This document shows positions 23,098 through 40,365 of a stretch of 44,178 nucleotides of DNA, one piece after another. The notes beneath the pieces were generated by a model, which made no database searches, was not told the origin of the DNA, and was given only the letters and a program-made list of their open reading frames with translations. Origin of the DNA: Actinomycetota bacterium (GTDB taxonomy: Bacteria; Actinomycetota; UBA4738; HRBIN12); NCBI GenBank assembly GCA_021325015.1, contig JAJPHY010000150.1, forward strand, positions 1-44,178. The letters are read 5' to 3'. How positions within the stretch are numbered: the first letter of the stretch is position 1; the number at the start of each line of letters is the position of its first letter. The position numbers were made by a program, and so were the translations under genes.

Positions 23098-23125
23098 GGC
23101 TACAGGCTACGCGAAGGCGACTCGC

Positions 23126-23162: not shown

Positions 23163-23210
23163 TAGGGACCCTCCCGCGCGAACGAGAGGCTATGGGGCAG
23201 GAGGTGGCGC

Positions 23211-24311: not shown

Positions 24312-25183
24312 GCCTGCAGAGCGCTCCCGCCGGGCCGCCGCTCGACCCCGAGGGACCGCCGGCGCGGATCGCGGTCATCACGCGCATCGTGCCGGAGACT
24401 CCCGACTCCTCGACCTACTGGGCCCGGTTCCGCGTCGGCGAGGGCGAGGGGTACTCGTTCGAGCCCGGTCAGTTCAACATGCTGTACCTGTTCGGGATCG
24501 GCGAGGTCGCGATCTCCATCTCGTCCGACCCCTCGCACCCGCAGCTCCTCGGGCACACGGTCCGCTCGGTCGGACGCGTGACCAACGCGTTCCGCAACCT
24601 CCGGCCCGGCGACGAGATCGGGATCCGTGGCCCGTTCGGCCGACCCTGGCCGCTGGACAGCGCCCGCGGCGGCGACCTCGTGGTCGTGGCCGGCGGCGTC
24701 GGCATCTGCCCGGTGCGACCCGCGATCGAGTACGCGATGCGCCACCGCGAGCAGTTCCGCCGGCTGGTGCTGCTGATGGGCGCGCGCGAGCCGAGCCTGT
24801 TCCCCTACAAGGAAGAGCTCGAGAAGTGGGTCGCCCAGATGCGGCGGATCGGCGTCGAGCTCCACCTCACGGTCGACCAGGCCGACGCCGATTGGAAGTA
24901 CGACGAGGGCGTCGTCACCACGCTGTTTCCCAAGGCGAACCTCGAGCCCGACCGCACGACCGCGTTCATCTGCGGACCCGAGATCATGATGTGGTTCGCG
25001 GCGCGGGGGCTCCTCGAGGTGGGCGTGCCCCCACAGCGGGTCCACGTCTCGCTCGAGCGACACATGCAGTGCGGCGTGAAGCTGTGCGGGCACTGCCAGA
25101 TGGGACCCAAGTTCGTCTGTCAGGACGGACCGGTCTTCCGATGGGACGAGGTCGGTGAACTCCTGGAGGTGCGAGAGCTGTGA
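24308..25183 (+). CDS. hydG: Group 3b hydrogenase gamma subunit (FAD/NAD(P)-binding, 2Fe-2S)
   Basis: FEPGQFNML, VAGGVGICP, ICGPEIMM, LERHMQCGVKLCGHCQ...VCQDGPVF; GTGA overlap. Confidence 0.9.
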   Translation: MSLQSAPAGPPLDPEGPPARIAVITRIVPETPDSSTYWARFRVGEGEGYSFEPGQFNMLYLFGIGEVAISISSDPSHPQLLGHTVRSVGRVTNAFRNLRPGDEIGIRGPFGRPWPLDSARGGDLVVVAGGVGICPVRPAIEYAMRHREQFRRLVLLMGAREPSLFPYKEELEKWVAQMRRIGVELHLTVDQADADWKYDEGVVTTLFPKANLEPDRTTAFICGPEIMMWFAARGLLEVGVPPQRVHVSLERHMQCGVKLCGHCQMGPKFVCQDGPVFRWDEVGELLEVREL

Positions 25184-25992
25184 GGGAGCGCGCCAAGCCA
25201 CGCGTCGCGGTCTTCAAGATGGCCTCCTGCGACGGCTGCCAGCTCCAGCTGCTCGACGCCGAGGAGGCGCTCCTCGAGCTCGCCGGCGCGATCGACATCG
25301 TGAACTTCGCGGAGGCGTCGTCCCACATCGAGCCCGGTCCCTACGACGTCACGCTCGTCGAGGGCTCGGTGTCCACGCCCGAGCTCGAAGAGCAGGTCAA
25401 GCAGATCCGGGACCAGTCGCGGGTGCTGATCACGATCGGGGCGTGTGCTACCTCGGGCGGCGTGCAGGCGCTCCGCAACCTCGCTGACACCGAGGCGTTC
25501 GTCCGGACCGTCTATCCCACGCCCGCCTACGTGAAGACCCTCGAGCGCTCGCACCCGATCTCGGACTTCGTGAAGGTCGACTACGAGCTCACCGGGTGCC
25601 CGATCGATCGCGGTGAGTTGCTCGGGGCCCTCTCGGCCCTGCTCGCGGGCTCGGCGCCGAGGCTCTCCACCTCGCCGGTCTGCGTCGAGTGCAAGCGGCG
25701 TGGCTACGTGTGTGTGGTCGTGGCGAGGGGCGAGCCCTGCCTGGGTCCGGTCACCCGGACCGGATGCGGCGCGCTCTGCCCCGCGTTCGGCCGCGGCTGC
25801 TACGGATGCTTCGGCCCGTCGCAACCCCCGAACACCGAGGCGCTCGCGAAGCGGTTCATCGCGCTCGGGCTCACCCCCAAGCAGGCGGCCGACAAGTTCC
25901 GGTTCATCACGGGATGGGCGCCCGCGTTTCGCGAGGCCGCCGACAGGCTGGAGCGGGGGCCTCGATCGGCGAAGGAGGGAGCGACGCCATGA
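25180..25992 (+). CDS. hydD: Group 3b hydrogenase small (delta) subunit
   Basis: KMASCDGCQ, IGACATSGG, GCP, VCVECK, PCLGPVTRTGCGALCP...CYGCFGP. Confidence 0.9.
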   Translation: MRERAKPRVAVFKMASCDGCQLQLLDAEEALLELAGAIDIVNFAEASSHIEPGPYDVTLVEGSVSTPELEEQVKQIRDQSRVLITIGACATSGGVQALRNLADTEAFVRTVYPTPAYVKTLERSHPISDFVKVDYELTGCPIDRGELLGALSALLAGSAPRLSTSPVCVECKRRGYVCVVVARGEPCLGPVTRTGCGALCPAFGRGCYGCFGPSQPPNTEALAKRFIALGLTPKQAADKFRFITGWAPAFREAADRLERGPRSAKEGATP

Positions 25993-27281
25993 CGCACCGT
26001 TCGGTCGAGGTTCCGGTCATCGCCCGCGTCGAGGGGGAGGGGGCGCTGCACATCACCGTCGAGGATCGCGAGATCAGCGACCTGCGGCTCGAGATCTACG
26101 AGCCCCCGCGGTTCTTCGAGGCGTTTCTGGTCGGCCGGTCCTACGCGGAGGTTCCCGACATCACGGCGCGGATCTGCGGGATCTGTCCGGTCGCCTACCA
26201 GATGAGCTCGATCCACGGGCTCGAGCGGCTCTTCGACGTACGGCTCCCGGCCGGGATTCGGGAGCTTCGGCGACTCCTGTACTGCGGGGAGTGGATCGAG
26301 AGCCACGTCCTCCACGTCTTCCTGCTCGCTGCGCCGGACTTCCTGGGCTTCGAGAACGCGATCGAGATGGCCAAGGCAGCGCCCGACCTCGTCAAGAAGG
26401 CGCTCGAGATCAAGCGGATCGGCAACGACCTGATGGCGGCGATCGGTGGGCGCGAGATCCACCCGGTCTCGCCGCGGGTCGGCGGCTTCTCGAGGGCCCC
26501 GCGGAGACGCGAGCTCGAGCCGTTCCTCCCGCGCCTCGAGTGGGCGTTGGGGGAGCTGCCGGGCATCGCGGACTTCGTCGCCGGACTGCCGCACCCCTCG
26601 CTTCCCAGACCGGCCGAGATGGTCTCGCTCGTGCACCCGGATGAGTACCCGATGAACGAGGGGCACCTCGCCTCCACCGGCGGCCGGTCGTTCGACGCCA
26701 CCACGTTCGAACAGGTCACGGACGAGATCCACGTCGAGCACTCCAACGCGCTCCACTCTGTGATGACGGAGACCGAGACGCCGTACGTCGTCGGCCCGCT
26801 CGCGCGGGTGAACCTCAACGCCGACCGGCTGACGCCGGTCGCCCGCGAGTGCATGGAGCGCACCGGCCTGTCGATTCCCGAGTCCGACCCCTTCTTCTCG
26901 ATGGCCGCCCGAGTGGTGAAGACCGCCGTCGCGATCGAGGAGGCCATCCGGATCCTGGAGGGGTACGCCCCCCCCGGGCCGTCGATGGCCGAGGTGACGC
27001 CCCGCGCGGGTCGCGCGACCTGGGTCACCGAGGCACCGAGGGGCATCCTCTACCACCGCTACGACGTCGAGGCGGACGGGACGATCCGGGAGGCGAAGAT
27101 CGTTCCGCCGACGTCGCAGAACCTCCGGCACATGGAGGAGGACCTGCGGCTGTTCCTCCCCGGGGCCCTCGACCGACCGGACGAGGAGCTCACGAGGATG
27201 TGCGAGATGGTCGTTCGCAACTACGATCCGTGCATCTCGTGCGCGACCCACTTCCTCCGGCTGGACCTCCGGCGGGTCTGA
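25989..27281 (+). CDS. hydA: Group 3b [NiFe]-hydrogenase large (alpha) subunit
   Basis: ARVEGEG, EPPRFFE, L1 motif RICGICPVAY, L2 motif DPCISCATH plus a short cleavable tail. Confidence 0.93.
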   Translation: MTHRSVEVPVIARVEGEGALHITVEDREISDLRLEIYEPPRFFEAFLVGRSYAEVPDITARICGICPVAYQMSSIHGLERLFDVRLPAGIRELRRLLYCGEWIESHVLHVFLLAAPDFLGFENAIEMAKAAPDLVKKALEIKRIGNDLMAAIGGREIHPVSPRVGGFSRAPRRRELEPFLPRLEWALGELPGIADFVAGLPHPSLPRPAEMVSLVHPDEYPMNEGHLASTGGRSFDATTFEQVTDEIHVEHSNALHSVMTETETPYVVGPLARVNLNADRLTPVARECMERTGLSIPESDPFFSMAARVVKTAVAIEEAIRILEGYAPPGPSMAEVTPRAGRATWVTEAPRGILYHRYDVEADGTIREAKIVPPTSQNLRHMEEDLRLFLPGALDRPDEELTRMCEMVVRNYDPCISCATHFLRLDLRRV

Positions 27282-27772
27282 GCGGCCCGATCCGGGTCCG
27301 GGTCGTCGGCTGCGGGAACCCCAGCGCGGGCGATGACGCCGTCGGTCTGATCGCCGTCCGGGAAGTCCGGTCCGAGCTGGAGACCCTGCCGGGGGTCGAG
27401 GTCGTGGAGGCCGGCCCGGCGCTGAACGTCGTGCACCTCCTCGAAGGGGTTGACGCCGCGGTGGTGGTGGACGCCGTGCGCTCGCCGCAGGGACGGCGCT
27501 CGGCTGGGGAGATCGTGCGCGCGGAGGCCGGACCCGACGGGCTCCCGGCCGACGTCGCAACGTCCCTGTCCTCCCACGGGTTCGGTCTGGCCGAGGCGGT
27601 GGCTCTGGCGGGGGCGCTGGGCCATGTCCCACGGATCGTGTTCCTTGGGGTGGAGGTCTCCGACGTCGCCGTCGGACGACCGCTGTCGGCGGCCGTCGCG
27701 GGGGCGCTCCCCCGGCTCGTGGAGCTCATCCGCGCCGAGACCAGGGCGTTCGTGAGGACCCTAGGGTCCTGA
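27278..27772 (+). CDS. Hydrogenase maturation protease (first copy)
   Basis: VVGCGNPSAGDDAVG, VVVDAV, SSHGFGLAE; start uncertain (CTG 27278 or GTG 27239). Confidence 0.85.
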   Translation: MSGPIRVRVVGCGNPSAGDDAVGLIAVREVRSELETLPGVEVVEAGPALNVVHLLEGVDAAVVVDAVRSPQGRRSAGEIVRAEAGPDGLPADVATSLSSHGFGLAEAVALAGALGHVPRIVFLGVEVSDVAVGRPLSAAVAGALPRLVELIRAETRAFVRTLGS

Positions 27773-27913
27773 CCCCAGGTCTCCTACTACCCGTCCCAGC
27801 GGCGCGCGGGTCGAATCGCACAAGCGAAGATCCGCCGGCGGACGCACGCTGAGGCTGTTGGACGTTCGCCGGGGGAAGTGCCTCCACCGGGGAACGTCCG
27901 GCAGGAGGCGGAC

Positions 27914-28588
27914 ATGCCCGTAGACGCTGTCCTCACGACGAGGGACCCCGAGGTCGACCGGCCCCCCGGCCGTCCCGCACCGAGGTCCGGAAACCGCACC
28001 AAGCGAACGAAGTGGCGGCCGGTCAAGGACCAGTCGAAGTTCGAGGCCCAGCTCGACCCCGGCTTTGCCGCGGAGATCGCGGCCGAGGTCGAGGGCGGCG
28101 AGCGGCTCCACCAGTGTATCCAGTGTGGAACGTGCAGCTCGGTCTGCCCGCTCAGCGCCTACATGGACCTGACGCCCCGCCGGCTGATCGCGATGACGCG
28201 AGCCGGCGCGCGAGACGACGTCGTGCACAGCATGACGCCCTGGGTGTGCGCGTCGTGCTACGCGTGCACGGTGGAGTGCCCGAAGCAGATCCCGATCACG
28301 GAGATCATGCACGCGCTTCGCCGCATCTCGCTCCGCGAGATCACCTATCCGAAGCGGTTCACCACCCCGGTGATGACCAAGGCGTTCGTCGACATGATCC
28401 AAGATCGCGGTCGAAGCACGGAGTCGTGGATCTCGATGAAGCTGTACCTGCGGACCAACCCGGCGCTGCTGGTCAAGAACGCCGCGATCGCCGGACGCCT
28501 GTTCCGCCAGGGACGGCTCGGAGTCAGGCGAGCGCGCATCAACGGGCGAGACGAGCTCCGCGCCCTGCTGAAGGCGGTGTCGGCATGA
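27914..28588 (+). CDS. hdrC: Heterodisulfide reductase subunit C-like
   Basis: CIQCGTCSSVCP and WVCASCYACTVECP; AGGAGG RBS before ATG 27914; directly upstream of hdrB. Confidence 0.88.
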   Translation: MPVDAVLTTRDPEVDRPPGRPAPRSGNRTKRTKWRPVKDQSKFEAQLDPGFAAEIAAEVEGGERLHQCIQCGTCSSVCPLSAYMDLTPRRLIAMTRAGARDDVVHSMTPWVCASCYACTVECPKQIPITEIMHALRRISLREITYPKRFTTPVMTKAFVDMIQDRGRSTESWISMKLYLRTNPALLVKNAAIAGRLFRQGRLGVRRARINGRDELRALLKAVSA

Positions 28589-29574
28589 CGACCATCACGT
28601 ACACGTACTACCCGGGCTGCTCGGCAGAGGGTGTTGGGCGTGCCTTCACGGAGTCCCTGTATGCGGTGTTCGAGCATCTGGGCACCGGGTTGAGGGAGCT
28701 GGAGGACTGGAACTGCTGTGGTGCCACCGCATGGCCTTCGGTCGATCAGAGCCAGGCGTACGCGCTCTCGGCCCGGAATCTCGCGTTGGCCGAGGAACGG
28801 GCCCCCGGCGCGGATCCGGCGGACGTGGTTGCCTCGTGCACCGGCTGTTACCGAGCGTTGCTCAAGGCCCAGGAGGCCCTCGGCGCATCGACCCCGACCT
28901 CCGACAGGCTGCGGAACGCGCTCGCCGCGATCGGACTGGACTTCCAAGGTCGGGCGCGGGTCCGTCACCCCGTGGACATCCTGCTGAACGAGATCGGCCT
29001 CGATCGGATCCGTGAGGCGGTCGTCCGGCCACTCCAGGGTGTCAGGGTCGCTTCCTATTACGGCTGCCAGCTGGTGCGGCCGTTTGCGACCTTCGACGAC
29101 CCCCGGAACCCGACGTCGATGGACCGACTGGTCGCGGCGGTGGGCGCCGAGCCCGTGGATTGGCCGCTGAAGGCGCGGTGCTGCGGCGGATCGTGTTATT
29201 GCGGTGGGCCCGTCATCGGCGCGATGCCGGAGGCCACGATGCAGCTCTCGTACGCGCTGCTGCGCGAGGCCTCCAAACGCGGCGCCGACGTCGTGGTCAC
29301 CATCTGCCCCCTGTGTGAGTTCAACCTGGAGGGGTTCCAGGGCCGGATGGCCAGGCGATTCGGCCACCCGCTGGACATGCCGACCGGGTTCCTCACCCAG
29401 CTGATGGGGATCGCCATGGGCATCGACGAGACGCGGCTGGGACTCCATCGGTTGCTGCGGTGGCGACTCCCCGAGGCCGCCGAGTCGGGACCGGCGACGG
29501 CCGGAGGACGGCCGCGCCGCGAGCCAGCTGCGGTGGGCGCATCGACCCATCCAGAGGGAGGCGGCGATGCCTGA
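28585..29574 (+). CDS. hdrB: Heterodisulfide reductase subunit B-like (two CCG domains)
   Basis: YYPGCS...DWNCCGA...CTGCY and YYGCQLVRP...CCGG...CPLCEFNL. Confidence 0.9.
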   Translation: MTTITYTYYPGCSAEGVGRAFTESLYAVFEHLGTGLRELEDWNCCGATAWPSVDQSQAYALSARNLALAEERAPGADPADVVASCTGCYRALLKAQEALGASTPTSDRLRNALAAIGLDFQGRARVRHPVDILLNEIGLDRIREAVVRPLQGVRVASYYGCQLVRPFATFDDPRNPTSMDRLVAAVGAEPVDWPLKARCCGGSCYCGGPVIGAMPEATMQLSYALLREASKRGADVVVTICPLCEFNLEGFQGRMARRFGHPLDMPTGFLTQLMGIAMGIDETRLGLHRLLRWRLPEAAESGPATAGGRPRREPAAVGASTHPEGGGDA

Positions 29575-31585
29575 GGGCGGGCTCAACCCCAAGGCCGTCT
29601 CGACCGACGGCGGTCCGAGGATCGGCGTGTACGTCTGTCACTGCGGCCTGAACATCGCCGGCAAGGTCGACGTGAAGGCCGTGGTCGAGTTCGCGGCATC
29701 GCTCCCGCACGTGACGGTCGCGCGCGACTACAAGTTCATGTGCTCGGACCCGGGCCAGGAGCTGATTCAGCAGGACCTGCGGGACGGTCTGGTGAACCGC
29801 GTCGTGGTGGCCTCGTGCTCGCCGCTCATGCACGAGGCCACGTTCCGCCGCGCCACGGCGGCCGGGGGGGAGAGCCCCTCGCACGTCCAGATGGCGAGCA
29901 TCCGCGAGCACGTGTCCTGGGTCACGGCGGACGGCGACGACGCGACCGAGAAGGCCAAGGCGCTCGTGGCCGGCGCGGTTCGCCGCGTGGCGCTCCACGA
30001 GGTCCTCGAGCCGAGGCAGTCCCCCGTTCGGCCCGACGTGATGGTGGTGGGCGGCGGGATCGCCGGCATCCACGCGGCGTTGACGCTCGCGGACGCCGGC
30101 AAGCACGTCTATCTGGTCGAGCGCGAGACGACCATCGGCGGCCACATGGCCAAGTTCGACAAGACGTTCCCAACGCTCGACTGCGCCGCCTGCATCCTCA
30201 CCCCGAAGATGTCGGCCGTCCGGACTCATCCGAACATCACGCTCTGGACCTACTCCGACGTCGTGAGCGTCGAGGGGTACGCGGGCGACTTCCGGGTCCG
30301 CGTGCGCCACCGTCCTCGGTACGTGCGGGAGGACCTGTGCACCGGGTGCCTCGCCTGCATCGACGCGTGCGTCCACAAGCAGGGCAAGTTCGAGGACGAG
30401 TGGAACGAGGGCCTGTCCAAGCGCAAGCCGATCTACATCCCCTTCCCACAGGCGACGCCTCCGGTCGTGGTCGTCGACCGCGAGGCGTGCATCTGGTTCA
30501 AGACCGGGAAGTGCCCGCGGACGTGCGTGGATGCGTGCGAGCGCGACGCGTTCGACTTCGAGCAGACCGAGACGTTCGACGAGGTCGAGGTCGGTGCGAT
30601 CATCCTCGCGACCGGGTACCGGACCTTCGACGCGTCCAGGATGCCCGAGTACGGGTACGGCCTCTATCCCAACGTCTACACCAGCCTGGAGGTCGAGCGC
30701 CTGCTGAACGCCGCCGGCCCGACGAACGGCGAGATCGTGCTCCGGGACGGCTCGCGCCCGCGCACCGTGGGGATCATCCACTGCGTGGGCTCGCGCGACG
30801 CCAAGCACAACCTGTGGTGCTCGAAGGTCTGCTGCATGTACTCGCTCAAGCTCGCGCACATGGTGAAGGAACGCATCGGCGCCGAGGTCTACAACTTCTA
30901 CATCGACATGCGCACGCCCGGAAAGGGCTACGAGGAGTTCTACGACAAGGTCCTCAGGGAGGGCGTGCACATGGTCCGCGGGCGCGTGGCCGGTGTGACC
31001 GACGAGGCGGCCTCGCCCGAGGAGGAGGGCCACCTGGTCATCCGCGCCGAGGATACCCTCATCGGCTCGGTCCGGCGGATCCCCGTCGACATGGTGATCC
31101 TCGCGGTCGGGATCGAGCCGCAGCCCGATGCCCAGGAAGTCCGCCGGCTGTTCAACGTCTCGTGCGGCTCGGAGGGCTTCTTCACCGAACGCCACCCGAA
31201 GCTCGCCCCCGTGTCGACGTTCACCGACGGCATCTTCCTGGCCGGTGCCTGCCAGGGCCCCAAGGACATCCCCGACAGCGTCGCGCAGGCCGGCGCGGCG
31301 GCGGCGGAGGCGCTCGCGATGATCGACCGCGGACACGTCACGCTCGAGTCGAGCACGGCGTTCATCGACGACGCGGCGTGCTCGGGCTGCAAGACCTGCG
31401 TCGGCCTCTGCCCGTTCGGCGCGATCGCGTTCGACGAGGACCGGAAGAAGGCCGCCGTCAACGAGGTGGTGTGCAAGGGGTGCGGGATCTGCGTGGGTGC
31501 GTGCCCGTCGGGCGCGGCCCAGCAGCACCTGTTCACCGACGCGCAGATCCTCTCGGAGATCGAGGGGGTGCTGGAGTATGTCTGA
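29567..31585 (+). CDS. hdrA: Heterodisulfide reductase subunit A (FAD, Fe-S)
   Basis: GVYVCHCGLNI, VVGGGIAG, DKTFPTLDCAAC, HCVGSRD, CSKVCCMYSLK, GACQGPKDIPDSV, C-terminal ferredoxin domain. Confidence 0.95.
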   Translation: MPEGGLNPKAVSTDGGPRIGVYVCHCGLNIAGKVDVKAVVEFAASLPHVTVARDYKFMCSDPGQELIQQDLRDGLVNRVVVASCSPLMHEATFRRATAAGGESPSHVQMASIREHVSWVTADGDDATEKAKALVAGAVRRVALHEVLEPRQSPVRPDVMVVGGGIAGIHAALTLADAGKHVYLVERETTIGGHMAKFDKTFPTLDCAACILTPKMSAVRTHPNITLWTYSDVVSVEGYAGDFRVRVRHRPRYVREDLCTGCLACIDACVHKQGKFEDEWNEGLSKRKPIYIPFPQATPPVVVVDREACIWFKTGKCPRTCVDACERDAFDFEQTETFDEVEVGAIILATGYRTFDASRMPEYGYGLYPNVYTSLEVERLLNAAGPTNGEIVLRDGSRPRTVGIIHCVGSRDAKHNLWCSKVCCMYSLKLAHMVKERIGAEVYNFYIDMRTPGKGYEEFYDKVLREGVHMVRGRVAGVTDEAASPEEEGHLVIRAEDTLIGSVRRIPVDMVILAVGIEPQPDAQEVRRLFNVSCGSEGFFTERHPKLAPVSTFTDGIFLAGACQGPKDIPDSVAQAGAAAAEALAMIDRGHVTLESSTAFIDDAACSGCKTCVGLCPFGAIAFDEDRKKAAVNEVVCKGCGICVGACPSGAAQQHLFTDAQILSEIEGVLEYV

Positions 31586-32126
31586 GACCGACCGCCCCTT
31601 CGAGCCCCGGATCGTGGCGTTCTTCTGCACCTGGTGCACGTACACGGCCGCCGACCTCGCCGGGATCTCGCGGATGCAGTACGCGCCAAACGTCCGGGCC
31701 ATCCGGCTCATGTGCTCGGGCCGGGTCGACCCGCAGTTCGTCCTCGCCGCGTTCCGGGACGGAGCCGACGGCGTGCTGATCGGGGGCTGCCATCCGGGGG
31801 ACTGCCACTACCAGGAGGGGAACGTCAACGCGCTCCGGCGCTTCGAGCTCCTGCGGCGCATGCTGCGCGACTTCGGAATCGAGGAGGGACGGGTTCGGCT
31901 CGAGTGGATCTCCGCCGCCGAGGGCGACAAGGTTCAGCGGGTGTGCAACGAGATGACCGAGCGGGTTCGCGCGCTCGGCCCGCTGCGGCTCGAGCCGGGA
32001 CCGCGCCGCCGTGTGGGCGTCGGAGTCGTTCCGGTCGGTGCCGCAGAGGCCGCAGCCGGCCCGGCCGCCGGTGAGGCGTCCGAGCCCGTTGGGGTCCTCG
32101 AGACGGAAGGTCGTGAGGCGCGATGA
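31578..32126 (+). CDS. mvhD: MvhD 2Fe-2S adaptor subunit
   Basis: FFCTWCTYTAADLAG, MCSGRVDP, GGCHPGDCHY, EWISAAEG. Confidence 0.93.
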   Translation: MSETDRPFEPRIVAFFCTWCTYTAADLAGISRMQYAPNVRAIRLMCSGRVDPQFVLAAFRDGADGVLIGGCHPGDCHYQEGNVNALRRFELLRRMLRDFGIEEGRVRLEWISAAEGDKVQRVCNEMTERVRALGPLRLEPGPRRRVGVGVVPVGAAEAAAGPAAGEASEPVGVLETEGREAR

Positions 32127-33136
32127 CCAAGCCGAAGGTCGCGTTCTACTGGTGCGCCTCCTGCGGCGGGTGCGAGGAGGCCGTGGTCGACCTGGCCGAG
32201 GACGTGCTCGCGGTGGTGGACGCGGTCGACATCGCGTTCTGGCCGGTGGCGCTCGACTTCAAGGTGTCCGACGTGGAGGCGCTCGCTGACGGAGAGCTCG
32301 CCGCCTCGTTCGTGAACGGCGCCATCCGGACCTCCGAGCAGCGCGAGATGGCCGAGCTTCTTCGGCGGAAGTCCGCCGTCGTGGTCGCGTTCGGCGCGTG
32401 CGCGTGGCTGGGCGGCATCCCTGGTCTCGCGAACCTGTCGAGCCGGGAGTCGATCCTCGAGTTCGTCTATCGGGGCTCTCCCAGCACGTCGGACGGAGAC
32501 GGAGTCCGCCCCCAGGAGGAGACCGACGTGCCGGAGGGCCGGCTGCGCCTCCCGCACTTCGACGAGACGGTGCGCACGCTCGACCAGGTGGTCGACGTGG
32601 ACTACTACCTCCCCGGCTGCCCGCCGCCGGTGGACCTGATCCGTTCCGCGGTGACCGCGCTGGTCGAGGGTCGGCTCCCGGAGAAGGGCTCGGTCCTCGC
32701 CCCGGATGTCGCGCTCTGCGCGGAGTGCCCCCGGGCGCAGACCAAGCCGACGGACCTGAAGGTGACCCAGTTCCGACGCCCGCACGAGGTGATCGCCGAC
32801 CCCGAGACCTGTCTGCTCGCCCAAGGGCTCGTGTGTCTCGGGCCGGCCACGCGATCGGGCTGCGGTGCGCCGTGCACCGCAGCGAACATGCCCTGCACGG
32901 GCTGCATGGGCCCCACCAGCCGCGTGATCGACTACGGCGCGAAGGCGCTGTCGGCGATCGCGTCTCTGGTTGCCCCGAGCGACGAGGAGGCCGTCGGCGA
33001 GGCGGTCGATCGGCTGGTGGATCCGGTCGGCACGTTCTACCGGTACTCGCTGCCGGCGTCGCTGCTCCACCGCCGCGTCGAACGGGACGCGGCCGGGTCG
33101 AGGGGAGGTGGCCAGGGATGGGCTCGGAGATCCTGA
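32123..33136 (+). CDS. mvhG: Group 3c [NiFe]-hydrogenase small subunit
   Basis: YWCASCGGCE, FGACAWLGGIPGLAN, LPGCPP, CLLAQGLVCLGPATRSGC, DPVGTFYRYSLP. Confidence 0.92.
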   Translation: MTKPKVAFYWCASCGGCEEAVVDLAEDVLAVVDAVDIAFWPVALDFKVSDVEALADGELAASFVNGAIRTSEQREMAELLRRKSAVVVAFGACAWLGGIPGLANLSSRESILEFVYRGSPSTSDGDGVRPQEETDVPEGRLRLPHFDETVRTLDQVVDVDYYLPGCPPPVDLIRSAVTALVEGRLPEKGSVLAPDVALCAECPRAQTKPTDLKVTQFRRPHEVIADPETCLLAQGLVCLGPATRSGCGAPCTAANMPCTGCMGPTSRVIDYGAKALSAIASLVAPSDEEAVGEAVDRLVDPVGTFYRYSLPASLLHRRVERDAAGSRGGGQGWARRS

Positions 33137-34581
33137 TCGACCCGATCACCCGCCTCGAGGGGCACGGCCGGATCCATATCTTCCTCGACGACGACGGCGA
33201 GGTCGACCGCGCGTACCTCCAGATCCCCGAGCTTCGGGGCTTCGAGACGTTCGCGCGGGGACGCCGGGCCGAGGACATGCCCCAGATCACGTCGCGCATC
33301 TGCGGTGTCTGCCCCATGGCGCATCACATGGCGGGGACCAAGACGCTCGACGACCTCTACCACGTCGATCCACCGCCGGCCGCCACGAAGGTTCGGGAGA
33401 TGGTCTACGACGCGTTCATGGTGGAGGACCACGCGCTCCACTTCTTCTTCCTGGGCGGTCCGGACTTCGTCGTGGGGCCGTCGGCTCCCAAGGCCGAGCG
33501 CAACGTGCTCGGCGTGATCGGAAAGGTTGGGCTCGAGGTCGGCAAAGAGGTCATCGGAGTTCGCAAGGAGCTGCGCGGATTGATCTCCGACGCGGCCGGG
33601 AAGGTCATCCATCCGGTCTTCGGGCTGCCGGGCGGGATCTCGCAGCCGGTGTCGCCAGAGCTCCGCGACCGGTTCGCCGCGGGTGCGGCCCGCGCGGTCG
33701 AGTTCGGGAAGTTCGCGCTCCAGGTGTTCCGCGACGTGGTGCTCTCGAACCGGGAGTACGTCGATCTCGTCACGTCCGAGGCCTACACGCATCGCACCTA
33801 CTACCTGGGCCTGGTCGACGAGCGGAACCGCGTGAACTACTACGACGGGCGCCTGCGGGTGGTGGACCCGGACGGTGCGGAGCTCGTCACGTTCCCGGCC
33901 CGCGAGTATCTCGACCACGTGGCCGAGCACGTCGAGCCCTGGAGCTACCTCAAGTTCTGCTACCTGAGGGACGTGGGGTGGAAGGGCTTCACCGACGGGG
34001 TCGACAGCGGCGTGTTCGCGGTCGCGCCGCTCGCCCGCCTGAACGCGTCCGAGGGGATGTCGACGCCGGTTGCGCAGGAAGCTTACGAGGAGCTGTGCTC
34101 GACCCTCGGGGGCAAGCCGGTGCACTACACGCTCGCCACGCACTGGGCCCGCCTGGTCGAGCTCGTGAACGCGGCCGAGCGGATGGCCGAGCTCGCCGCC
34201 GACCCGGACATCACGAGCCCCGAGGTCCGGAGGATCCCGACCGAGACCCCGACCGAGGGCATCGGCGTCGTCGAGGCACCCCGCGGCACGCTGATCCACC
34301 ACTACGCCACCGACGAGCGCGGGCTGATCACGCAGGCCAACTTGATCGTCGCCACGCAGAACAACGCGGCCAGGATCGCGCTCTCGGTCGACAAGGCGGC
34401 GAAGGCGCTCGTGCACGGCGCGGAGGTCGACGAAGCGCTGCTGAACCGGGTCGAGATGGCCTTTCGCGCCTACGACCCGTGCTTCGGATGCGCGACGCAC
34501 GCGCTCCCGGGGCAGATGCCGCTGATCGTCGAGGTCCGCGACCCCTCGGGGACGCTCGTACGCGAGCTCCGTCGGGACTGA
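33118..34581 (+). CDS. mvhA: Group 3c [NiFe]-hydrogenase large subunit
   Basis: DPITRLEGHG, PELRGFE, RICGVCPMAH, EAPRGTLIHHY, RAYDPCFGCATH plus a C-terminal extension. Confidence 0.93.
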   Translation: MGSEILIDPITRLEGHGRIHIFLDDDGEVDRAYLQIPELRGFETFARGRRAEDMPQITSRICGVCPMAHHMAGTKTLDDLYHVDPPPAATKVREMVYDAFMVEDHALHFFFLGGPDFVVGPSAPKAERNVLGVIGKVGLEVGKEVIGVRKELRGLISDAAGKVIHPVFGLPGGISQPVSPELRDRFAAGAARAVEFGKFALQVFRDVVLSNREYVDLVTSEAYTHRTYYLGLVDERNRVNYYDGRLRVVDPDGAELVTFPAREYLDHVAEHVEPWSYLKFCYLRDVGWKGFTDGVDSGVFAVAPLARLNASEGMSTPVAQEAYEELCSTLGGKPVHYTLATHWARLVELVNAAERMAELAADPDITSPEVRRIPTETPTEGIGVVEAPRGTLIHHYATDERGLITQANLIVATQNNAARIALSVDKAAKALVHGAEVDEALLNRVEMAFRAYDPCFGCATHALPGQMPLIVEVRDPSGTLVRELRRD

Positions 34582-34587
34582 GGCGAG

Positions 34588-35109
34588 ATGCGCACGCTCG
34601 TGCTGGGCCTGGGCAACGAGCTCGCGGGGGACGACGCGGCCGGCCTCCTCGCGGCTCGAGCGGTGCGCGAGGACCTCGAGGGGCTCGCCGACGTGGTCGA
34701 GAGCGGGGCGTCGGGCATCGCCCTGATCGAGGAGCTCGCGGGCTACGACCGCGCGGTCGTCGTGGATGCGATCCGGACGAGCCGGCGGCCGCCGGGCGAG
34801 GTGGTCGAGCTCGACCTGAGCGACCTGGGACCCCCGGTCGCCCCGAGTCTGCACCAGGCCGGGCTTGCGGAGCTCGCGGCCGTGGCGGCTCGGCTCGGCC
34901 TGCCGTTCCCGGCGCGCACGGTGGTGATGGCCGTCGAGGTGGTGGACCCGTACACGATCGGAGGGCCGATGAGCGAACCCGTCCGGCGCGCGCTCCCCGA
35001 GCTCGCCCGGCGGATCCGCGTGCAGGTGGAGCGGTGGAGGGATGAGGACGAGGCCGGCGGGGCAGTCGGCGGCGTGGAGGAGCAAGGTGCACGACTACGA
35101 GGCCGTTGA
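34588..35109 (+). CDS. Hydrogenase maturation protease (second copy)
   Basis: LVLGLGNELAGDDAAG, VVVDAI, SLHQAGLAE. Confidence 0.88.
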   Translation: MRTLVLGLGNELAGDDAAGLLAARAVREDLEGLADVVESGASGIALIEELAGYDRAVVVDAIRTSRRPPGEVVELDLSDLGPPVAPSLHQAGLAELAAVAARLGLPFPARTVVMAVEVVDPYTIGGPMSEPVRRALPELARRIRVQVERWRDEDEAGGAVGGVEEQGARLRGR

Positions 35110-35443
35110 GAAGCTGATCGACCGGCTCGTCGAGGGGCTCGGCCCGTTCGATCGCATCACGCGGGTGAGGATCCGCGTGAGCCCGATCTACTCCCCCGAC
35201 GCGCTCGAGCAGGCCTTCGAGATGGTGACGAGGGACACGCCGCTCGAGGGAGCCGAGCTCGAGATCGAGGGAGCGGGCGAGCAGATGTGCCCGAGCTGCG
35301 GGGCCCGCTGGTCGCCGACGCACGACGACCTCGCCGGACCGTGGCTGGTCTGTCCGGAGTGCGCGTCGCGCACCCCGATCGAGTCGACGGGCCTCGCGGT
35401 GCTCGAGGTCGTGGACGGGCCCGCTCCGAAGACGGTTTGCTGA
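35087..35443 (+). CDS. hypA: Hydrogenase nickel chaperone HypA (divergent)
   Basis: GTG 35087 after GGAGGAG gives MHDY...; ALEQAFEMVTRDTPLEGAELEIE; CPSC and CPEC zinc motifs. Confidence 0.8.
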   Translation: MHDYEAVEKLIDRLVEGLGPFDRITRVRIRVSPIYSPDALEQAFEMVTRDTPLEGAELEIEGAGEQMCPSCGARWSPTHDDLAGPWLVCPECASRTPIESTGLAVLEVVDGPAPKTVC

Positions 35444-35460
35444 CCCGCGGCCGGTCCCGC

Positions 35461-35498
35461 GGGACCTTCGGCCCGGACCGCCTCGGGTCGGGCGGCCC
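35461..35498. promoter_or_regulatory. Tandem DosR-like boxes upstream of hypF
   Basis: GGGAC-CTTC-GGCCC (35461-35474) and GGGTC-GGGC-GGCCC (35485-35498); candidate -10 CACGAT at 35522-35527. Confidence 0.6.
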
Positions 35499-35525
35499 AC
35501 CCCAGGAGTTTGCCCCTGCGGCACG

Positions 35526-37820
35526 ATGGCCGTGATGGACGTCAGGGCACCCGACCGGACCGAACGACCGACCGCCAGGGACCTCGAGGTTCGGGGCGTC
35601 GTGCAGGGGGTGGGCTTTCGTCCGTTCGTGTGGCGGCTCGCCACCCGCCACGGGATCTCCGGCTGGGTGCGCAATCGAAGCGGCGTCGTCGAGATCCACG
35701 CCGAGGGACCCGAGCCCGCGCTCGAGGCGTTCTGCGCGGCGATCTCGGCCGAGGCCCCTCCGCTCGCTCGGGTCGAGGACGTGCGCTGGTCGTCCGGGCC
35801 GGTCCTGGATCTGTCGGGATTCGAGGTCGATCGGAGCCTGTCCGAGCCCGGAGGCGACCGGCTGGTCTCGCCCGACGTGGCCACCTGCCCGGCATGCCTG
35901 AGCGAGCTGTTCGATCCGAACGACCGCCGGTATCGCTACCCGTTCATCAACTGCACCGATTGCGGCCCCCGGTTCACCATCATCGAGAGCCTCCCCTACG
36001 ACCGCGAGCGGACCAGCATGCGCGCGTTTCCGCTGTGCGAGGACTGCCGGCGCGAGTACCTGGACCCCTCGAACCGCCGTTTCCACGCCGAGCCGGTCGC
36101 CTGCCCGGCGTGCGGGCCAACGCTCGAGCTGCGGGACGCCGGCTGGAGGCCGGTCGATGGCGATCCGATCGTGGAGGCGGCCTCGCTCCTGCGTCGCGGC
36201 GGGATCGTCGCGGTGAAGGGCCTCGGAGGGTTCCACCTCGCGTGCGACGCGACGAACGACCGCGTGGTCCACGCGCTCCGCGTTCGCAAGGAGAGGCCCG
36301 ACAAGCCGTTCGCCGTCATGGTCGCCGACGTCGAGCAGGCGCGCGAGCTGTTCGAGCTCACGCCCGAGGAGATCGCGCTGCTCGCCTCGCCGGCCGCCCC
36401 GATCGTGCTGGTTCGCGATCTCGGCCGTCTCGCCCCGTCGGTCGCGCCCGGGCACCGGCGCCAGGGCGCGATGCTTCCCTCCACGCCGCTGCACCACCTG
36501 CTGCTGCGGGAGGCGGGGGTCCCGCTGGTCATGACCAGCGGGAACCGGAGCGAGGAGCCGATCTGCACCGGAAACGAGGAGGCGCGCGAGCGCTTGTCGG
36601 GGGTCGCGGACGCCTTCCTCGTCCACGATCGCGAGATCGTCTCCCGCTACGACGACTCGGTCGCCCACGTGTGGAGGGGCGGGCCGGCGCTGCTGCGACG
36701 GGCCAGGAGCTTCGCCCCCTCGCCGCTGGAGCTGCCGGCGCGCGTCCGGCCCACGCTCGGGACCGGCGCGATGCTGAACGGCACCTTCTGCCTCGCGAGC
36801 GGAACCCGCGCGTTTCTCTCCCAGCACATCGGCGACCTCGACACGGAGGAGGCCATGCGAGCCTACGCCGATGCGCTCGATCGCTACCGGTCCGTCTTCG
36901 GCCTCGATCCGGAGGTGGTCGCCCACGACCTGCACCCGGACTTCGCCACGACCCGGTTCGCCGAGGAGACCGGGCTGCCGCGCCTGGCGGTGCAGCACCA
37001 CCACGCGCATATCGCATCGGTCATGGCCGAGCACGGCCTCGGGGGGCCGGTGATCGGGGTCGCGGTCGACGGCTTCGGCCTCGGCGAGGACGGGACGATC
37101 TGGGGTGGGGAGTTCCTCGTGTGCGACTGGGGCCGGGCGGAGCGGCTGGGTCACCTCCGTACGGTTCGCCAGCCCGGCGGGGACGCCGCCGTTCGGCACC
37201 CGTGGCGGATGGCGCTCGCCCACGCGGCCGACGCCGGATGCCTCGGCGAGGCGCGATCCCTGATGCCGGAGCGCGACGACGAGGTGGGGGTGGTGAGCGG
37301 GCAGATCCGCTCCGGGCTCGCCTCGCCGCTCACGAGCTCGATGGGGCGGCTGTTCGATGCGGTCTCGGCGCTCGCCTGGGTCTGCCGGGAGGCGACGTAT
37401 GAAGGCCAGCCGGCGATGCTGCTCGAGCAGGCCGCCGAGCCCGCGGACGCGCCCGGGTACCCGGTCCGCATGGACCTGCTCGACGGGCGGCTCATCGTCG
37501 ACACGCGCCCGATCGTCGCCGGCGTGGTGCAGGACCTCCGAGGCGGGGTGCCCGTCGGGCGCGTGTCGTGGCGGTTCCACCGGAGCGTGGCCCAGGCGAT
37601 CGAGCTCGCGTGCGCCCGGATCCGCTCCTCCACGGGACTGGATCGGGTCTGCCTCGGAGGCGGCGTCTTCCAGAACGCGCTCCTCGTGGACGAGGCGGTC
37701 GGCCGCCTGGAGGCGCTCGGGTTCTCCGTGTTCGTCCCCCAGCAAGTTCCCGCCGGCGACGGGGGGATCGCGCTCGGACAGGTGCTCGTCGCGCACGCGC
37801 GGATGGGAGGCGAGGGCTGA
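35526..37820 (+). CDS. hypF: Carbamoyltransferase HypF
   Basis: [52 protein letters not shown]; the true start may be ATG 35535. Confidence 0.95.
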
Positions 37821-38089
37821 TGTGCCTCGGGGTGCCGGGCAAGGTGGTCGAGGTCTTCGAGGAGGACGGGCTGCGGATGGGCCTGGTGGACTTCGGCGGT
37901 ATCAAGCGCAAGGCGTGCCTCGCGTACGAGCCGGACGTCGACGTCGGCAGCTACGTCGTGATCCACGTCGGCTTCGCGATCTCGGTGGTGGACGAGGAGG
38001 AGGCCCGGCGCGCCTACGAGCTGCTGGCCGAGATGGGCAACCTCGAGGGGATCGACCTGCCGCAGGATCCCGAGGGGGTGCGCGAGTGA
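37820..38089 (+). CDS. hypC: HypC chaperone
   Basis: MCLGVPGKV...[10 protein letters not shown]. Confidence 0.95.
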
Positions 38090-40268: not shown

Positions 40269-40365
40269 TCCGGCCGGCTCGCGGTCGGCCGCGCCGGTTG
40301 TGCGCCTCGCCCTTCGCCGGTAGCGTGCGGGTGCCCACCCGCCGTTCGACCGAAGGAGCCCAGGA

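What the first reader, a model, noticed from the sequence alone, without database searches (positions are those of the whole stretch)
27914..34581. Complete methanogen-type HdrCBA-MvhDGA complex in a probable actinobacterium
Seen: all six subunits are contiguous and overlapping, with intact cofactor motifs and Cys (no in-frame TGA) at the MvhA/MvhD positions that can be selenocysteine. Established: in methanogens MvhADG-HdrABC bifurcates electrons from H2 to ferredoxin and CoM-S-S-CoB; bacterial homologs exist (e.g. in sulfate reducers) with uncertain disulfide substrates. No mcr, dsrC or flx genes are in the window. Inference: the high-potential acceptor here is an unknown disulfide or persulfide, in an organism that also encodes an LLM-class enzyme. 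Host assignment is inferred, and Hdr-like genes are already reported from some anaerobic actinobacterial lineages.
Basis: partly seen in the sequence, partly recalled or inferred. Interest (0 to 1): 0.75.

Follow-up and report, generated by a model that had tools for sequence, protein, structure and literature searches.

The report
Bacterial Hdr-Mvh hydrogenase operon, actinobacterial clade
This is an intact six-gene operon for a hydrogen-using, electron-splitting enzyme of the kind methanogens use; it sits in an uncultured oxygen-respiring actinobacterium, belongs to a bacterial version of the operon found in many phyla, and its sulfur substrate is still unknown.

Summary
hdrC-hdrB-hdrA-mvhD-mvhG-mvhA lie at 27914-34581 on the + strand. 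They overlap by 4-19 nt, have no internal stop and keep all cofactor motifs.

"Methanogen-type" is imprecise. All six proteins score below NCBIfam's methanogen cut-offs. The operon belongs to a bacterial clade: at least 592 species genomes hold an MvhA relative. Of 60 loci with enough flank, 35 keep the same six-gene order, in 11 named phyla.

This scan found the same kind before on other DNA (planctomycete, Dehalococcoidia).

Within the host's lineage it is rare: 12 of 223 family genomes and 14 of 294 class genomes.

Five carrier genomes show no DsrC, DsrA, AprA, McrA, AcsB, ComA, MshC or EgtD. Four of the five have haem-copper oxidase and all five have pyruvate:ferredoxin oxidoreductase.

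In HdrB the arginines that bind coenzyme B in methanogens are replaced. An actinobacterial subclade also carries a Cys-bearing insertion (CYCGGP) in that substrate loop.

Best reading: a reversible H2:ferredoxin/unknown-disulfide bifurcating complex. It is a new member of a known kind and of modest interest.

The parts
27914..28588 (+). hdrC: two-[4Fe-4S] ferredoxin-like subunit, 224 aa, with a roughly 60-aa Arg/Pro-rich N-terminal extension
   Evidence: Pfam Fer4_8 1.2e-10. NCBIfam gives the qmoC N-terminus and CoB_CoM_SS_C, both below cut-off. PDB 8rvv_C 1.5e-16. Motifs CIQCGTCSSVCP and CASCYACTVECP. AGGAGG lies 7 nt before the ATG.
28585..29574 (+). hdrB: catalytic subunit with two CCG domains (the two non-cubane [4Fe-4S] sites), 329 aa
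   Evidence: Pfam CCG 7.6e-22, two stretches. TIGR03288 scores 181.9 bits against a cut-off of 345. Five methanogen HdrB chains match at 3e-42 to 4e-39, with all ten Cys aligned.
29194..29211 (+). Lineage-specific HdrB insertion CYCGGP (residues 204-209, two extra Cys), placed directly after the second CCG motif
   Evidence: The insertion is present in the window and in 9 other actinobacterial sequences. Variants are CYGADP (L015, G013) and SCCGGP (G283). It is absent from G355 and from every non-actinobacterial locus aligned.
29567..31585 (+). hdrA: FAD- and Fe-S-containing bifurcating flavoprotein, 672 aa
   Evidence: NCBIfam HdrA2 scores 798.8 bits (cut-off 1100) over model positions 1-642. 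PDB 8rvu_a 1.7e-200 over residues 15-669. GGGIAG and three CxxCxxCxxxC motifs.
31578..32126 (+). mvhD: [2Fe-2S] connector subunit, 182 aa
   Evidence: Pfam FlpD 6.3e-54 over the full profile. PDB 5odc_D 1.2e-48.
32123..33136 (+). mvhG: [NiFe]-hydrogenase small subunit of the long Mvh type, 337 aa
   Evidence: NCBIfam VhuG 2.7e-61. PDB 5odc_E 2.5e-67 over residues 5-316. The short small subunits 7t2r_E and 5xf9_C score only 9e-21 and 2e-16.
33118..34581 (+). mvhA: [NiFe]-hydrogenase large subunit, 487 aa, with Cys (not Sec) ligands and a C-terminal tail for proteolytic maturation
   Evidence: NCBIfam VhuA 7.1e-113; the next model is ShyA at 6.8e-46. PDB 7t2r_D 1.2e-116 and 5odc_F 1.6e-104. RICGVCPMAHH and DPCFGCATH motifs.
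34588..35109 (+). Hydrogenase maturation endopeptidase, the conserved seventh gene of the module
   Evidence: Pfam HycI 1.4e-11. TIGR00072 scores 95.3 bits, above its cut-off. A homologue lies just downstream of mvhA in 55 of 80 related loci.
35042..40268 (+). hypA, hypF, hypC, hypD and hypE maturation genes (35042-35443, 35526-37820, 37820-38089, 38086-39192, about 39069-40268). No hypB was seen in the window.
   Evidence: Pfam HypA, HypF domains, HupF_HypC, HypD and AIRS.
23211..27772 (+). Adjacent second hydrogenase: group-3b-like hyhBGSL plus its own endopeptidase (about 27278-27772, start codon unclear). A 141-nt spacer separates it from hdrC.
   Evidence: Pfam Fer4_22, NAD_binding_1+DHODB_Fe-S_bind, Oxidored_q6 and NiFeSe_Hases. 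NCBIfam sulfhydrogenase HydB/G/D/A and ShyA models, below cut-off, and TIGR00072 at 103 bits. Translation.

Best explanation
The locus encodes a bacterial-type MvhADG-HdrABC complex. MvhAG, a cytoplasmic group-3c [NiFe]-hydrogenase matured by the downstream endopeptidase and the Hyp proteins, passes electrons from H2 through the [2Fe-2S] subunit MvhD to the flavin of HdrA. By analogy with the solved methanogen enzymes, the flavin splits each electron pair. One electron goes uphill to ferredoxin. [quoted passage not shown]

Shown here: all subunits and cofactor ligands are intact; the operon belongs to a large bacterial clade with a fixed gene order; and the host is an oxidase-bearing, PFOR-bearing actinobacterium that lacks methanogenesis, sulfate reduction and the Wood-Ljungdahl pathway.

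Inferred: the high-potential substrate is not CoM-S-S-CoB but an unidentified disulfide or persulfide. The reaction is reversible, and the host uses it together with the neighbouring 3b hydrogenase for redox balancing when oxygen is scarce.
For: Identity: Pfam and NCBIfam and the best solved-structure matches of HdrA, B, C and MvhD, G to methanogen Hdr-Mvh chains.

Motifs and absence of stops. Translational coupling.

Bacterial clade: 592 of 601 pattern-matched stretches in species genomes encode a relative. The best 80 span many phyla at 60-86% identity. 35 of 60 loci with at least 5.3 kb upstream have collinear hdrCBA-mvhDGA. The protease follows mvhA in 55 of 80 loci.

Tree: the window lies in a 99%-supported 16-row clade. 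Six of those rows carry Actinomycetota titles and the other ten are the window and genome-search loci of the same phylum.

Not CoM/CoB: McrA 0 of 5 and ComA 0 of 5 carrier genomes. All six proteins score below the methanogen equivalog cut-offs. Arg14, Arg201 and Arg240 of 5ODR HdrB bind the coenzyme B phosphate and carboxylate (PMC13261682, passages read). They align to Val17, Ile211 and Gly250 here, and Gly46 falls in a one-residue gap.

Ferredoxin partner plausible: POR_N enzymes in 5 of 5 carriers.

No other ferredoxin-linked hydrogenase was found. [FeFe] hydrogenase is 0 of 5. The only two [NiFe] large subunits found in G000 with MvhA and HyhL as queries are the two in this window.
Against: There are no biochemical data for any bacterial member, and no RNA data here.

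The large subunit's best solved match is the HydL subunit of the Acetomicrobium mobile NiFe-HydABCSL enzyme (7t2r_D, 394 bits against 354 for MvhA). The large subunit alone therefore does not fix the group.

A conserved Arg/Lys lies two residues after the Arg14 position in nearly all bacterial HdrB sequences, so an anionic substrate is not excluded.

No candidate disulfide carrier is encoded beside the operon in any phylum. DsrC, mycothiol (MshC) and ergothioneine (EgtD) markers are absent. The acceptor is therefore inferred only by exclusion.

Poudel et al. 2018 found bifurcating Mvh only in obligate anaerobes (PMC6085437), whereas this host has haem-copper oxidase.
Confidence: 0.6

Rival explanations
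1. Same enzyme, opposite physiological direction. Under anoxia it works as a confurcating, H2-evolving hydrogenase. It burns reduced ferredoxin from pyruvate:ferredoxin oxidoreductase together with a thiol, and the disulfide is re-reduced by NAD(P)H-dependent reductases. The net effect resembles that of HydABC-type hydrogenases.
For: nifJ-type PFOR is present in 5 of 5 carriers. It is present in 11 of the 12 family genomes that carry mvhA and in 88 of the 211 that do not. The family total is 99 of 223 and includes the unpublished genomes G087 and G226. No [FeFe] hydrogenase (0 of 5) and no further [NiFe] large subunit is available to dispose of ferredoxin electrons. An NADP-type 3b hydrogenase, which HydDB lists as NADPH-oxidising and H2-evolving (PMC5037454), sits directly upstream.
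Against: Relatives are not independent, so the PFOR enrichment is weak evidence. H2 is expected in hot-spring and mine habitats, where near-identical DNA occurs, and that would favour uptake. Direction cannot be read from sequence.
Confidence: 0.3
2. The HdrB site acts on a protein-bound or inorganic sulfur species (a persulfide on a TusA/DsrE-type carrier, or polysulfide) and not on a small-molecule disulfide. The two inserted cysteines would serve as a relay thiol pair.
For: The CYCGGP insertion puts two extra Cys into the loop that carries Gly198 and Arg201 in methanogen HdrB. At least one extra Cys is kept in all 13 sequences that have the insertion. A DsrE-family gene heads a second Hdr/Qmo-like locus on contig C8. 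Markers of four small-molecule thiols or carriers are missing.
Against: The C8 locus is present in only 4 of 12 carriers and also in 4 of 211 non-carriers, so it is not tied to the operon. No sulfur-carrier gene is conserved next to the operon. Most bacterial members lack the insertion.
Confidence: 0.2
3. The contig is mis-binned from another organism, or the operon is an inactive relic, so the actinobacterial setting is an artefact.
For: The genome is a MAG of 169 contigs. The operon is patchy in the family.
Against: GC of the operon is 0.696, against 0.711 for the genome, and the profile across the window is flat. A closed 3.45-Mb chromosome of the same family carries the operon at 76-88% protein identity. 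G013 and G001 share the 3b-3c tandem arrangement, and L015 shares the flanking NAPRTase, hyp, zincin and deaminase genes. All frames are open and all ligands are kept.
Confidence: 0.03

Closest known systems
MvhAGD-HdrABC of hydrogenotrophic methanogens (Methanothermococcus thermolithotrophicus 5ODC/5ODR; entries 8RVU/8RVV and 9SW2; the Fdh-Hdr complex 7BKB)
   Same: The same six subunits and cofactor-binding motifs. HdrA, MvhD and MvhG align over their full length. The ten HdrB cysteines are conserved.
   Different: The gene order is one fused operon, hdrCBA-mvhDGA plus protease. Scores fall below all methanogen equivalog cut-offs. The coenzyme-B-binding arginines are replaced and the CoM loop is altered. 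The host lacks mcrA and comA. Cys is used in place of Sec.
Bacterial hdrCBA-mvhDGA operons. These were drawn as 'MvhAGD-HdrABC' with an unnamed RSH/RS-SR pair in UBA6911 Acidobacteria MAGs that also have an aerobic chain (10.1101/2021.04.09.439258, passages read). A group 3c mvh was noted in peatland Acidobacteria (10.1101/197269, passages read). Earlier scan notes are e1-4110434 and e1-1354122.
   Same: Same gene order, the same bacterial HdrB motifs (PGCS.., WNCCGAT, CPLCQFNLE), 60-75% MvhA identity, a protease downstream, and no identified substrate.
   Different: This copy belongs to a separate Actinomycetota clade. Part of that clade has a Cys-bearing insertion in HdrB. The host class rarely has the operon. 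Here it stands in tandem with a 3b hydrogenase and the hyp genes.
Acetomicrobium mobile NiFe-HydABCSL (7T2R/7T30; PMC8880783, passages read)
   Same: Its large subunit is the best solved sequence match to MvhA (394 bits), including a similar C-terminal tail after the DPCxxCxxH motif.
   Different: Its small subunit is short (179 aa, 78 bits against 231 for MvhG). Its partners are HydABC (Bfu-type), not MvhD/HdrABC.
metF(V)-mvhD-hdrABC clusters of Wood-Ljungdahl Actinobacteria (PMC7325909 and PMC12917137, passages read)
   Same: Hdr/MvhD genes in uncultured Actinomycetota from hot, H2-rich settings.
   Different: Those clusters lack the hydrogenase subunits and are linked to methylene-THF reductase in strict anaerobes. 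Here MvhAG is present, no MetF/V gene lies in the window, AcsB is 0 of 5 and a haem-copper oxidase is present.

Membership tests
MvhADG-HdrABC / group 3c [NiFe]-hydrogenase-heterodisulfide reductase architecture | All six subunits encoded together | tested here: met
   Six overlapping ORFs with the expected Pfam and NCBIfam families.
MvhADG-HdrABC / group 3c [NiFe]-hydrogenase-heterodisulfide reductase architecture | MvhA L1 (ICGxCxxxH) and L2 (AYDPCxxCATH) motifs, as given in PMC6085437 | tested here: met
   RICGVCPMAHH at residues 60-70. DPCFGCATH at residues 453-461, preceded by AY.
MvhADG-HdrABC / group 3c [NiFe]-hydrogenase-heterodisulfide reductase architecture | Long MvhG-type small subunit and an MvhD [2Fe-2S] subunit | tested here: met
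   MvhG aligns over residues 5-316 to 5odc_E (2.5e-67). The short HydS and HoxY chains score only 9e-21 and 2e-16. MvhD matches 5odc_D at 1.2e-48.
MvhADG-HdrABC / group 3c [NiFe]-hydrogenase-heterodisulfide reductase architecture | HdrB with two complete CCG motifs (ten Cys); HdrA with FAD and Fe-S domains | tested here: met
MvhADG-HdrABC / group 3c [NiFe]-hydrogenase-heterodisulfide reductase architecture | HydDB or reference-tree placement of the large subunit in group 3c | not testable with these tools
   No HydDB and no labelled reference set were on hand. Proxies: the best NCBIfam model is VhuA (377 bits; the next model scores 157). However, the best PDB chain is A. mobile HydL, ahead of MvhA.
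MvhADG-HdrABC / group 3c [NiFe]-hydrogenase-heterodisulfide reductase architecture | H2-dependent coupled reduction of ferredoxin and a disulfide | not testable with these tools
   This needs an enzyme assay.
Methanogen CoB-CoM heterodisulfide reductase (NCBIfam equivalogs TIGR03288, TIGR03290, NF041778, NF041785) | Score above the curated cut-off | tested here: not met
   HdrB 181.9 against 345. HdrC 69.8 against 160. HdrA 599-799 against 1100-1400. VhuA 377 against 800. VhuG 207 against 450. VhuD 136 against 215.
Methanogen CoB-CoM heterodisulfide reductase (NCBIfam equivalogs TIGR03288, TIGR03290, NF041778, NF041785) | Coenzyme B/M binding residues of HdrB (Arg14, Arg201, Arg240, Gly46, Gly198; PMC13261682) | tested here: not met
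   These positions align to Val17, Ile211, Gly250, a gap and Gly208 respectively. Only Gly198 is kept. The paper does not name the chain; the numbering fits 5odc_B.
Methanogen CoB-CoM heterodisulfide reductase (NCBIfam equivalogs TIGR03288, TIGR03290, NF041778, NF041785) | Host makes and uses CoM/CoB (mcrA, comA) | tested here: not met
   PF02249 is 0 of 5 and PF02679 is 0 of 5 carrier genomes, with controls positive. Coenzyme B biosynthesis was not searched.
Bacterial hdrCBA-mvhDGA(+protease) operon clade | Collinear six-gene order with a downstream endopeptidase | tested here: met
   The same order is seen in 35 of 60 loci with enough flank, and the protease in 55 of 80 loci.
Bacterial hdrCBA-mvhDGA(+protease) operon clade | Clade-specific HdrB motifs and MvhA tree position | tested here: met
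   Alignment of 41 HdrB sequences. FastTree of 91 MvhA rows (SH-like support only).
Sulfur-oxidiser sHdr system (hdrC1B1A-hyp-C2B2 with lipoate-binding protein) | Duplicated HdrB/HdrC and no hydrogenase | tested here: not met
   G000 has a single HdrB, and hydrogenase genes are fused to the operon. LbpA was not searched.
DsrC-dependent Hdr-like systems of sulfate/sulfite reducers | DsrC, DsrAB or AprA in the genome | tested here: not met
   DsrC 0 of 5. DsrA 0 of 5 over cut-off. AprA 0 of 5 over cut-off.

The most novel reading that the evidence does not exclude
The actinobacterial subclade has remodelled the HdrB substrate loop. The coenzyme-B arginines are gone and a CYCGGP insert adds a cysteine pair next to the second non-cubane cluster. 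On this reading the enzyme would reduce a new kind of acceptor, such as a protein persulfide/disulfide or polysulfide, through a relay dithiol. That would let an oxygen-respiring actinobacterium use H2 to make low-potential ferredoxin and reduced sulfur during hypoxia. It would be a bifurcating hydrogenase working outside strict anaerobes with a substrate class not yet known for HdrABC.
Probability: 0.15. Interest if true: 0.6.

Novelty: new member of a known kind. Interest (0 to 1): 0.3.

Why it matters
The physiological substrate of bacterial HdrABC-Mvh complexes is an open question, and the operon is very common in uncultured soil, sediment and spring bacteria. This copy adds three things:

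- A host that lacks every usual suspect searched here: CoM, DsrC, mycothiol, ergothioneine, the Wood-Ljungdahl pathway and nitrogenase.
- A host that still has an oxygen reductase.
- A compact natural variant of the HdrB active-site loop that could be used to probe substrate recognition.

It does not change what is known about the enzyme class. It is one more example, in a lineage where the operon is rare.

Tried and rejected
1. Conserved neighbours as a clue to the substrate. I ran tblastn of 14 window flank genes against 80 loci, and blastp of 446 flank ORFs from 10 representative loci against all ORFs. Only the endopeptidase and scattered hyp genes recur. A full all-against-all blastp timed out and was replaced by these two runs.

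2. Link to the C8 Qmo-like locus. It is present in 8 of 223 family genomes, 4 of them carriers, so there is no tight coupling.

3. Expression. The look-up of sequencing runs listed no RNA holder. This is no evidence either way.

4. Promoter and terminator scan of 22900-41600. Nothing was found, which is uninformative at 70% GC.

5. Literature.
   - 'group 3c' + Actinobacteriota + hydrogenase gave 0 papers.
   - hdrABC/mvhADG + Actinobacteriota/Actinomycetota/soil gave nothing relevant.
   - HdrABC-MvhADG + bacteria + non-methanogen gave nothing relevant.
   - 'group 3c' + heterodisulfide reductase + Actinobacteria + hydrogenase gave 14 papers. The one I opened for Actinobacteria (PMC7325909, passages) reports mvhD/hdrABC clusters and variable group 3c hydrogenases in anaerobic Wood-Ljungdahl lineages only.
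   - I found no paper on the HdrB insertion, but I did not search for it specifically.

6. CoM-S-S-CoB as substrate was rejected.

7. Mycothiol disulfide and ergothioneine disulfide were made unlikely (MshC and EgtD 0 of 5 over cut-off). Glutathione, bacillithiol, CoA-disulfide and lipoamide were not searched.

8. Nitrogenase (0 of 5) and acetyl-CoA synthase (0 of 5) were rejected as ferredoxin sinks.

9. Structure and complex prediction were not run. The folds are textbook, and the tools return no coordinates with which to place the insertion.

Full report
**Observation.** The window is 44,178 nt at about 70% GC throughout. It is contig C104 of a 2.6-Mb, 169-contig genome that is 96.5% complete and 0.98% contaminated.

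At 27914-34581 six + strand ORFs follow one another:
- hdrC 27914-28588
- hdrB 28585-29574
- hdrA 29567-31585
- mvhD 31578-32126
- mvhG 32123-33136
- mvhA 33118-34581

Successive genes overlap by 4, 8, 8, 4 and 19 nt. Pfam and NCBIfam assign each ORF to the expected family. Against solved structures, HdrA (1.7e-200), HdrB (3e-42), HdrC (1.5e-16), MvhD (1.2e-48) and MvhG (2.5e-67) match methanogen Hdr-Mvh chains best. MvhA matches 5odc_F at 1.6e-104, but its top hit is 7t2r_D at 1.2e-116. That chain is the large subunit of the Acetomicrobium mobile NiFe-HydABCSL enzyme (PMC8880783, passages). The expected Cys and flavin motifs listed in the observation check are present, and none of the six frames contains a stop, so no selenocysteine codon is used.

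**Surroundings.**
- Upstream (23211-27772) lies a second hydrogenase of the NADP-linked 3b (sulfhydrogenase-like) type, hyhBGSL, with its own maturation endopeptidase.
- A 141-nt spacer and an AGGAGG ribosome-binding site precede hdrC.
- Downstream are a second endopeptidase (34588-35109), hypA, hypF, hypC, hypD, hypE and an arginase-family gene.
- With MvhA and HyhL as phmmer queries, these two are the only [NiFe] large subunits found in the genome.

**What it belongs to.** All six proteins fall below NCBIfam's curated cut-offs for the methanogen enzymes. The best 80 are 60-86% identical. They carry titles from Acidobacteriota, Verrucomicrobiota, Planctomycetota, Bacteroidota, Ignavibacteriota, Elusimicrobiota, Armatimonadota, Gemmatimonadota, Chloroflexota, Actinomycetota and others, plus two archaeal MAGs.

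Sixty of the 80 loci have at least 5.3 kb upstream of mvhA. Of these, 35 show the same collinear hdrCBA-mvhDGA order, 4 hold all six genes in another order, and 21 lack one or more. The endopeptidase follows mvhA in 55 of 80 loci. No other flank gene is shared across phyla. This is therefore the bacterial form of the complex, a seven-gene module, and not a methanogen import.

Such operons have been noted in MAG studies. Examples are Acidobacteria family UBA6911, drawn with an aerobic chain and an unnamed RSH/RS-SR pair (10.1101/2021.04.09.439258, passages), and peatland Acidobacteria (10.1101/197269, passages). After my own analysis I found that this scan had already reported the same kind in a planctomycete and a Dehalococcoidia genome. 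The planctomycete note reaches the same conclusion about lost substrate-binding residues.

**Group 3c.** HydDB could not be run. In favour:
- The best NCBIfam model is VhuA (377 bits, the next model 157).
- The L1 and L2 motifs that PMC6085437 gives for MvhA are present.
- The small subunit is a full-length MvhG-type protein and not the short HoxY/HydS type.
- MvhD is present and hdrABC is linked.
- JGI names close homologues 'F420-non-reducing hydrogenase large subunit'.

Against: the large subunit scores slightly higher to A. mobile HydL than to MvhA.

**Host and distribution.** Same-family genomes coincide with public MAGs titled 'uncultured Actinomycetes bacterium'. One is a closed 3.45-Mb chromosome that carries the operon at 76-88% protein identity. 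The collection's class for this genome holds only 294 species genomes, in one order and eight families. It is therefore a small lineage known here only from MAG records, whatever its NCBI label.

MvhA orthologues (E <= 1e-100) occur as follows:
- Family: 12 of 223 genomes, own included; 7 of 85 high-quality genomes; 6 of 33 genera.
- Class: 14 of 294 genomes.
- Phylum: 21 of 401 evenly drawn genomes. Only 4 of these are at 74% identity or more, 3 are at 51-58%, and 14 are at 40-45%.

In a FastTree of 91 MvhA rows the window sits in a 99%-supported 16-row clade. Its members are all Actinomycetota: six by record title and ten by the genome search group, the window included. They comprise the window's own family, another family of the order, one further family, and MAGs labelled Acidimicrobiaceae and Streptosporangiaceae. 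The clade is nested among other bacterial phyla (SH-like supports only, midpoint root). The complex is thus rare in the lineage but old enough to have its own actinobacterial branch. Operon GC (0.696) matches the genome (0.711). Two relatives share the 3b-3c tandem, and L015 shares further flank genes, so mis-binning is unlikely.

**Metabolic setting.** Family searches covered G000 and four other carriers (G001, G009, G013, G014; 91-97% complete), with positive controls in named genomes.
- Not found: DsrC 0 of 5; DsrA 0 of 5 over cut-off; AprA 0 of 5 over cut-off; McrA 0 of 5; acetyl-CoA synthase 0 of 5; ComA 0 of 5; MshC 0 of 5 over cut-off; EgtD 0 of 5; nitrogenase 0 of 5; [FeFe] hydrogenase 0 of 5.
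- Found: haem-copper oxidase subunit I in 4 of 5, with two copies in G000 and one in the closed chromosome; 2-oxoacid:ferredoxin oxidoreductases in 5 of 5, including a roughly 1200-aa nifJ-type PFOR.

That PFOR is in 99 of 223 family genomes: 11 of the 12 carriers and 88 of the 211 others. The count includes the unpublished genomes G087 and G226, and kin are not independent. The host therefore looks like a facultative aerobe with a ferredoxin pool. This contrasts with the statement that bifurcating Mvh occurs only in obligate anaerobes among complete genomes (PMC6085437), although MAG papers have since drawn it beside aerobic chains.

Near-identical DNA occurs in hot-spring, mine and soil metagenome runs. 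Leaving out the two possible source samples, five runs from three studies hold 0.82-0.96 of the sampled words.

**HdrB substrate site.** PMC13261682 (passages) reports for structure 5ODR that the coenzyme M sulfonate is held by the backbone NH of Gly46 and Gly198. The coenzyme B carboxylate is held by Arg201, and its phosphate by Arg14 and Arg240. The paper does not name the chain, but these residues stand at exactly those numbers in 5odc_B.

In the phmmer alignment, Arg14, Arg201 and Arg240 face Val17, Ile211 and Gly250 of the window protein. Gly46 falls in a one-residue gap, and only Gly198 is kept. Arg14 and Arg201 are kept in all five solved methanogen HdrB sequences.

An alignment of 41 bacterial HdrB sequences shows a consistent bacterial pattern in place of the methanogen motifs: PGCSxKGTGR/K, WNCCGAT, CCGGS-LTGT and CPLCQFNLE. 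A conserved Arg/Lys lies two residues after the Arg14 position.

The window and nine other actinobacterial sequences carry a six-residue insertion, CYCGGP (residues 204-209, nt 29194-29211), right after the second CCG motif. The nine are L014, L017, L030, L031, L032, G001, G009, G097 and G141. It adds two cysteines, giving 12 Cys in all. L015 (identical to G076 in MvhA) and G013 have CYGADP, and G283 has SCCGGP. G355 and all other phyla have no insertion. The insertion lies in the loop that in methanogens carries Gly198 and Arg201. Its position in space was not modelled.

**Mechanism.** By homology with the solved complexes, MvhAG oxidises H2, and MvhD carries electrons to the HdrA flavin. The flavin bifurcates them to ferredoxin and, through HdrC, to the HdrB clusters, which cleave a disulfide.
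- Shown: intact parts, clade membership and host context.
- Inferred: bifurcation itself, ferredoxin as partner, a non-CoM/CoB disulfide or persulfide as acceptor, and use under low oxygen.

Direction is open. With PFOR present and no other ferredoxin-linked hydrogenase found, H2 evolution by confurcation is a serious alternative.

A second Hdr-related locus lies on contig C8. It encodes DsrE, an MvhD-like protein, two HdrA-like proteins and a QmoC-like membrane subunit that matches the qmoC model over positions 6-359 of 360 at 179 bits, below the cut-off of 300. It is not co-inherited with the operon: it occurs in 4 of 12 carriers and 4 of 211 non-carriers.

**Verdict.** The finding is a real, intact, well-annotatable operon and a new member of a known and widespread bacterial kind. 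It lies in a lineage where the operon is uncommon, and it carries a small lineage-specific change at the active-site loop.

Noticed in passing
window 23211-27772: A complete group-3b-like hydrogenase (hyhBGSL) with its own endopeptidase lies directly upstream of hdrC. I found no ATG, GTG or TTG start near the beginning of the endopeptidase's homology. The same 3b-3c tandem occurs in G013 and G001 of the family and, with 44-52% identity, in an Ignavibacteriae MAG (L069).
   Followed up: partly
G000:C8:30453-36332 (L003 11051-16932, minus strand): A second Hdr-related locus encodes DsrE-family, MvhD-like, two HdrA-like (QmoA/QmoB-like) and QmoC-like membrane subunits, with no HdrB and no AprA in the genome. 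It is present in 8 of 223 family genomes. It resembles the Qmo-type modules of earlier scan note e1-3090551 but has no adjacent hydrogenase.
   Followed up: partly
window 40366-41385 and L003 9000-10184: An arginase/agmatinase-family gene flanks both Hdr-type loci of this genome: one after hypE in the window and one next to the QmoC-like gene on C8. This may be coincidence.
   Followed up: no
L039, L041, L042, L045, L053, L063 (related loci): In these Acidobacteriota and Acidimicrobiia loci hdrC lies about 4.9 kb before hdrA, and no HdrB match was found between them. Other genes therefore occupy the gap. This may be the split-HdrA/Bfu variant described in earlier scan notes (e1-944468).
   Followed up: no
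G146:C10:36616-37761: A same-family genome holds a second, 50%-identical MvhA-like frame with one in-frame TGA. It could be a selenocysteine-type paralogue or a broken gene.
   Followed up: no
window 35042-40268: The hyp cluster reads hypA-hypF-hypC-hypD-hypE with no hypB between hypA and hypF. The genome was not searched for hypB.
   Followed up: no
window 4739-6583 and 11226-14570: A LuxR-type (GerE) regulator is fused to a periplasmic-binding-protein domain. Two adjacent PAS/HisKA_3 sensor kinases lie on the minus strand, and an LLM-family oxidoreductase at 6587-7729. No link to the hydrogenase genes was seen.
   Followed up: no
related loci, HdrB position equivalent to window Gly250: Many non-actinobacterial HdrB sequences have a cysteine (NLECYQ/NLECFQ) at the position of methanogen Arg240, which gives an eleventh Cys. 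Sequences with the full CYCGGP insertion have Gly or Ala there, but the pattern is not strict.
   Followed up: partly
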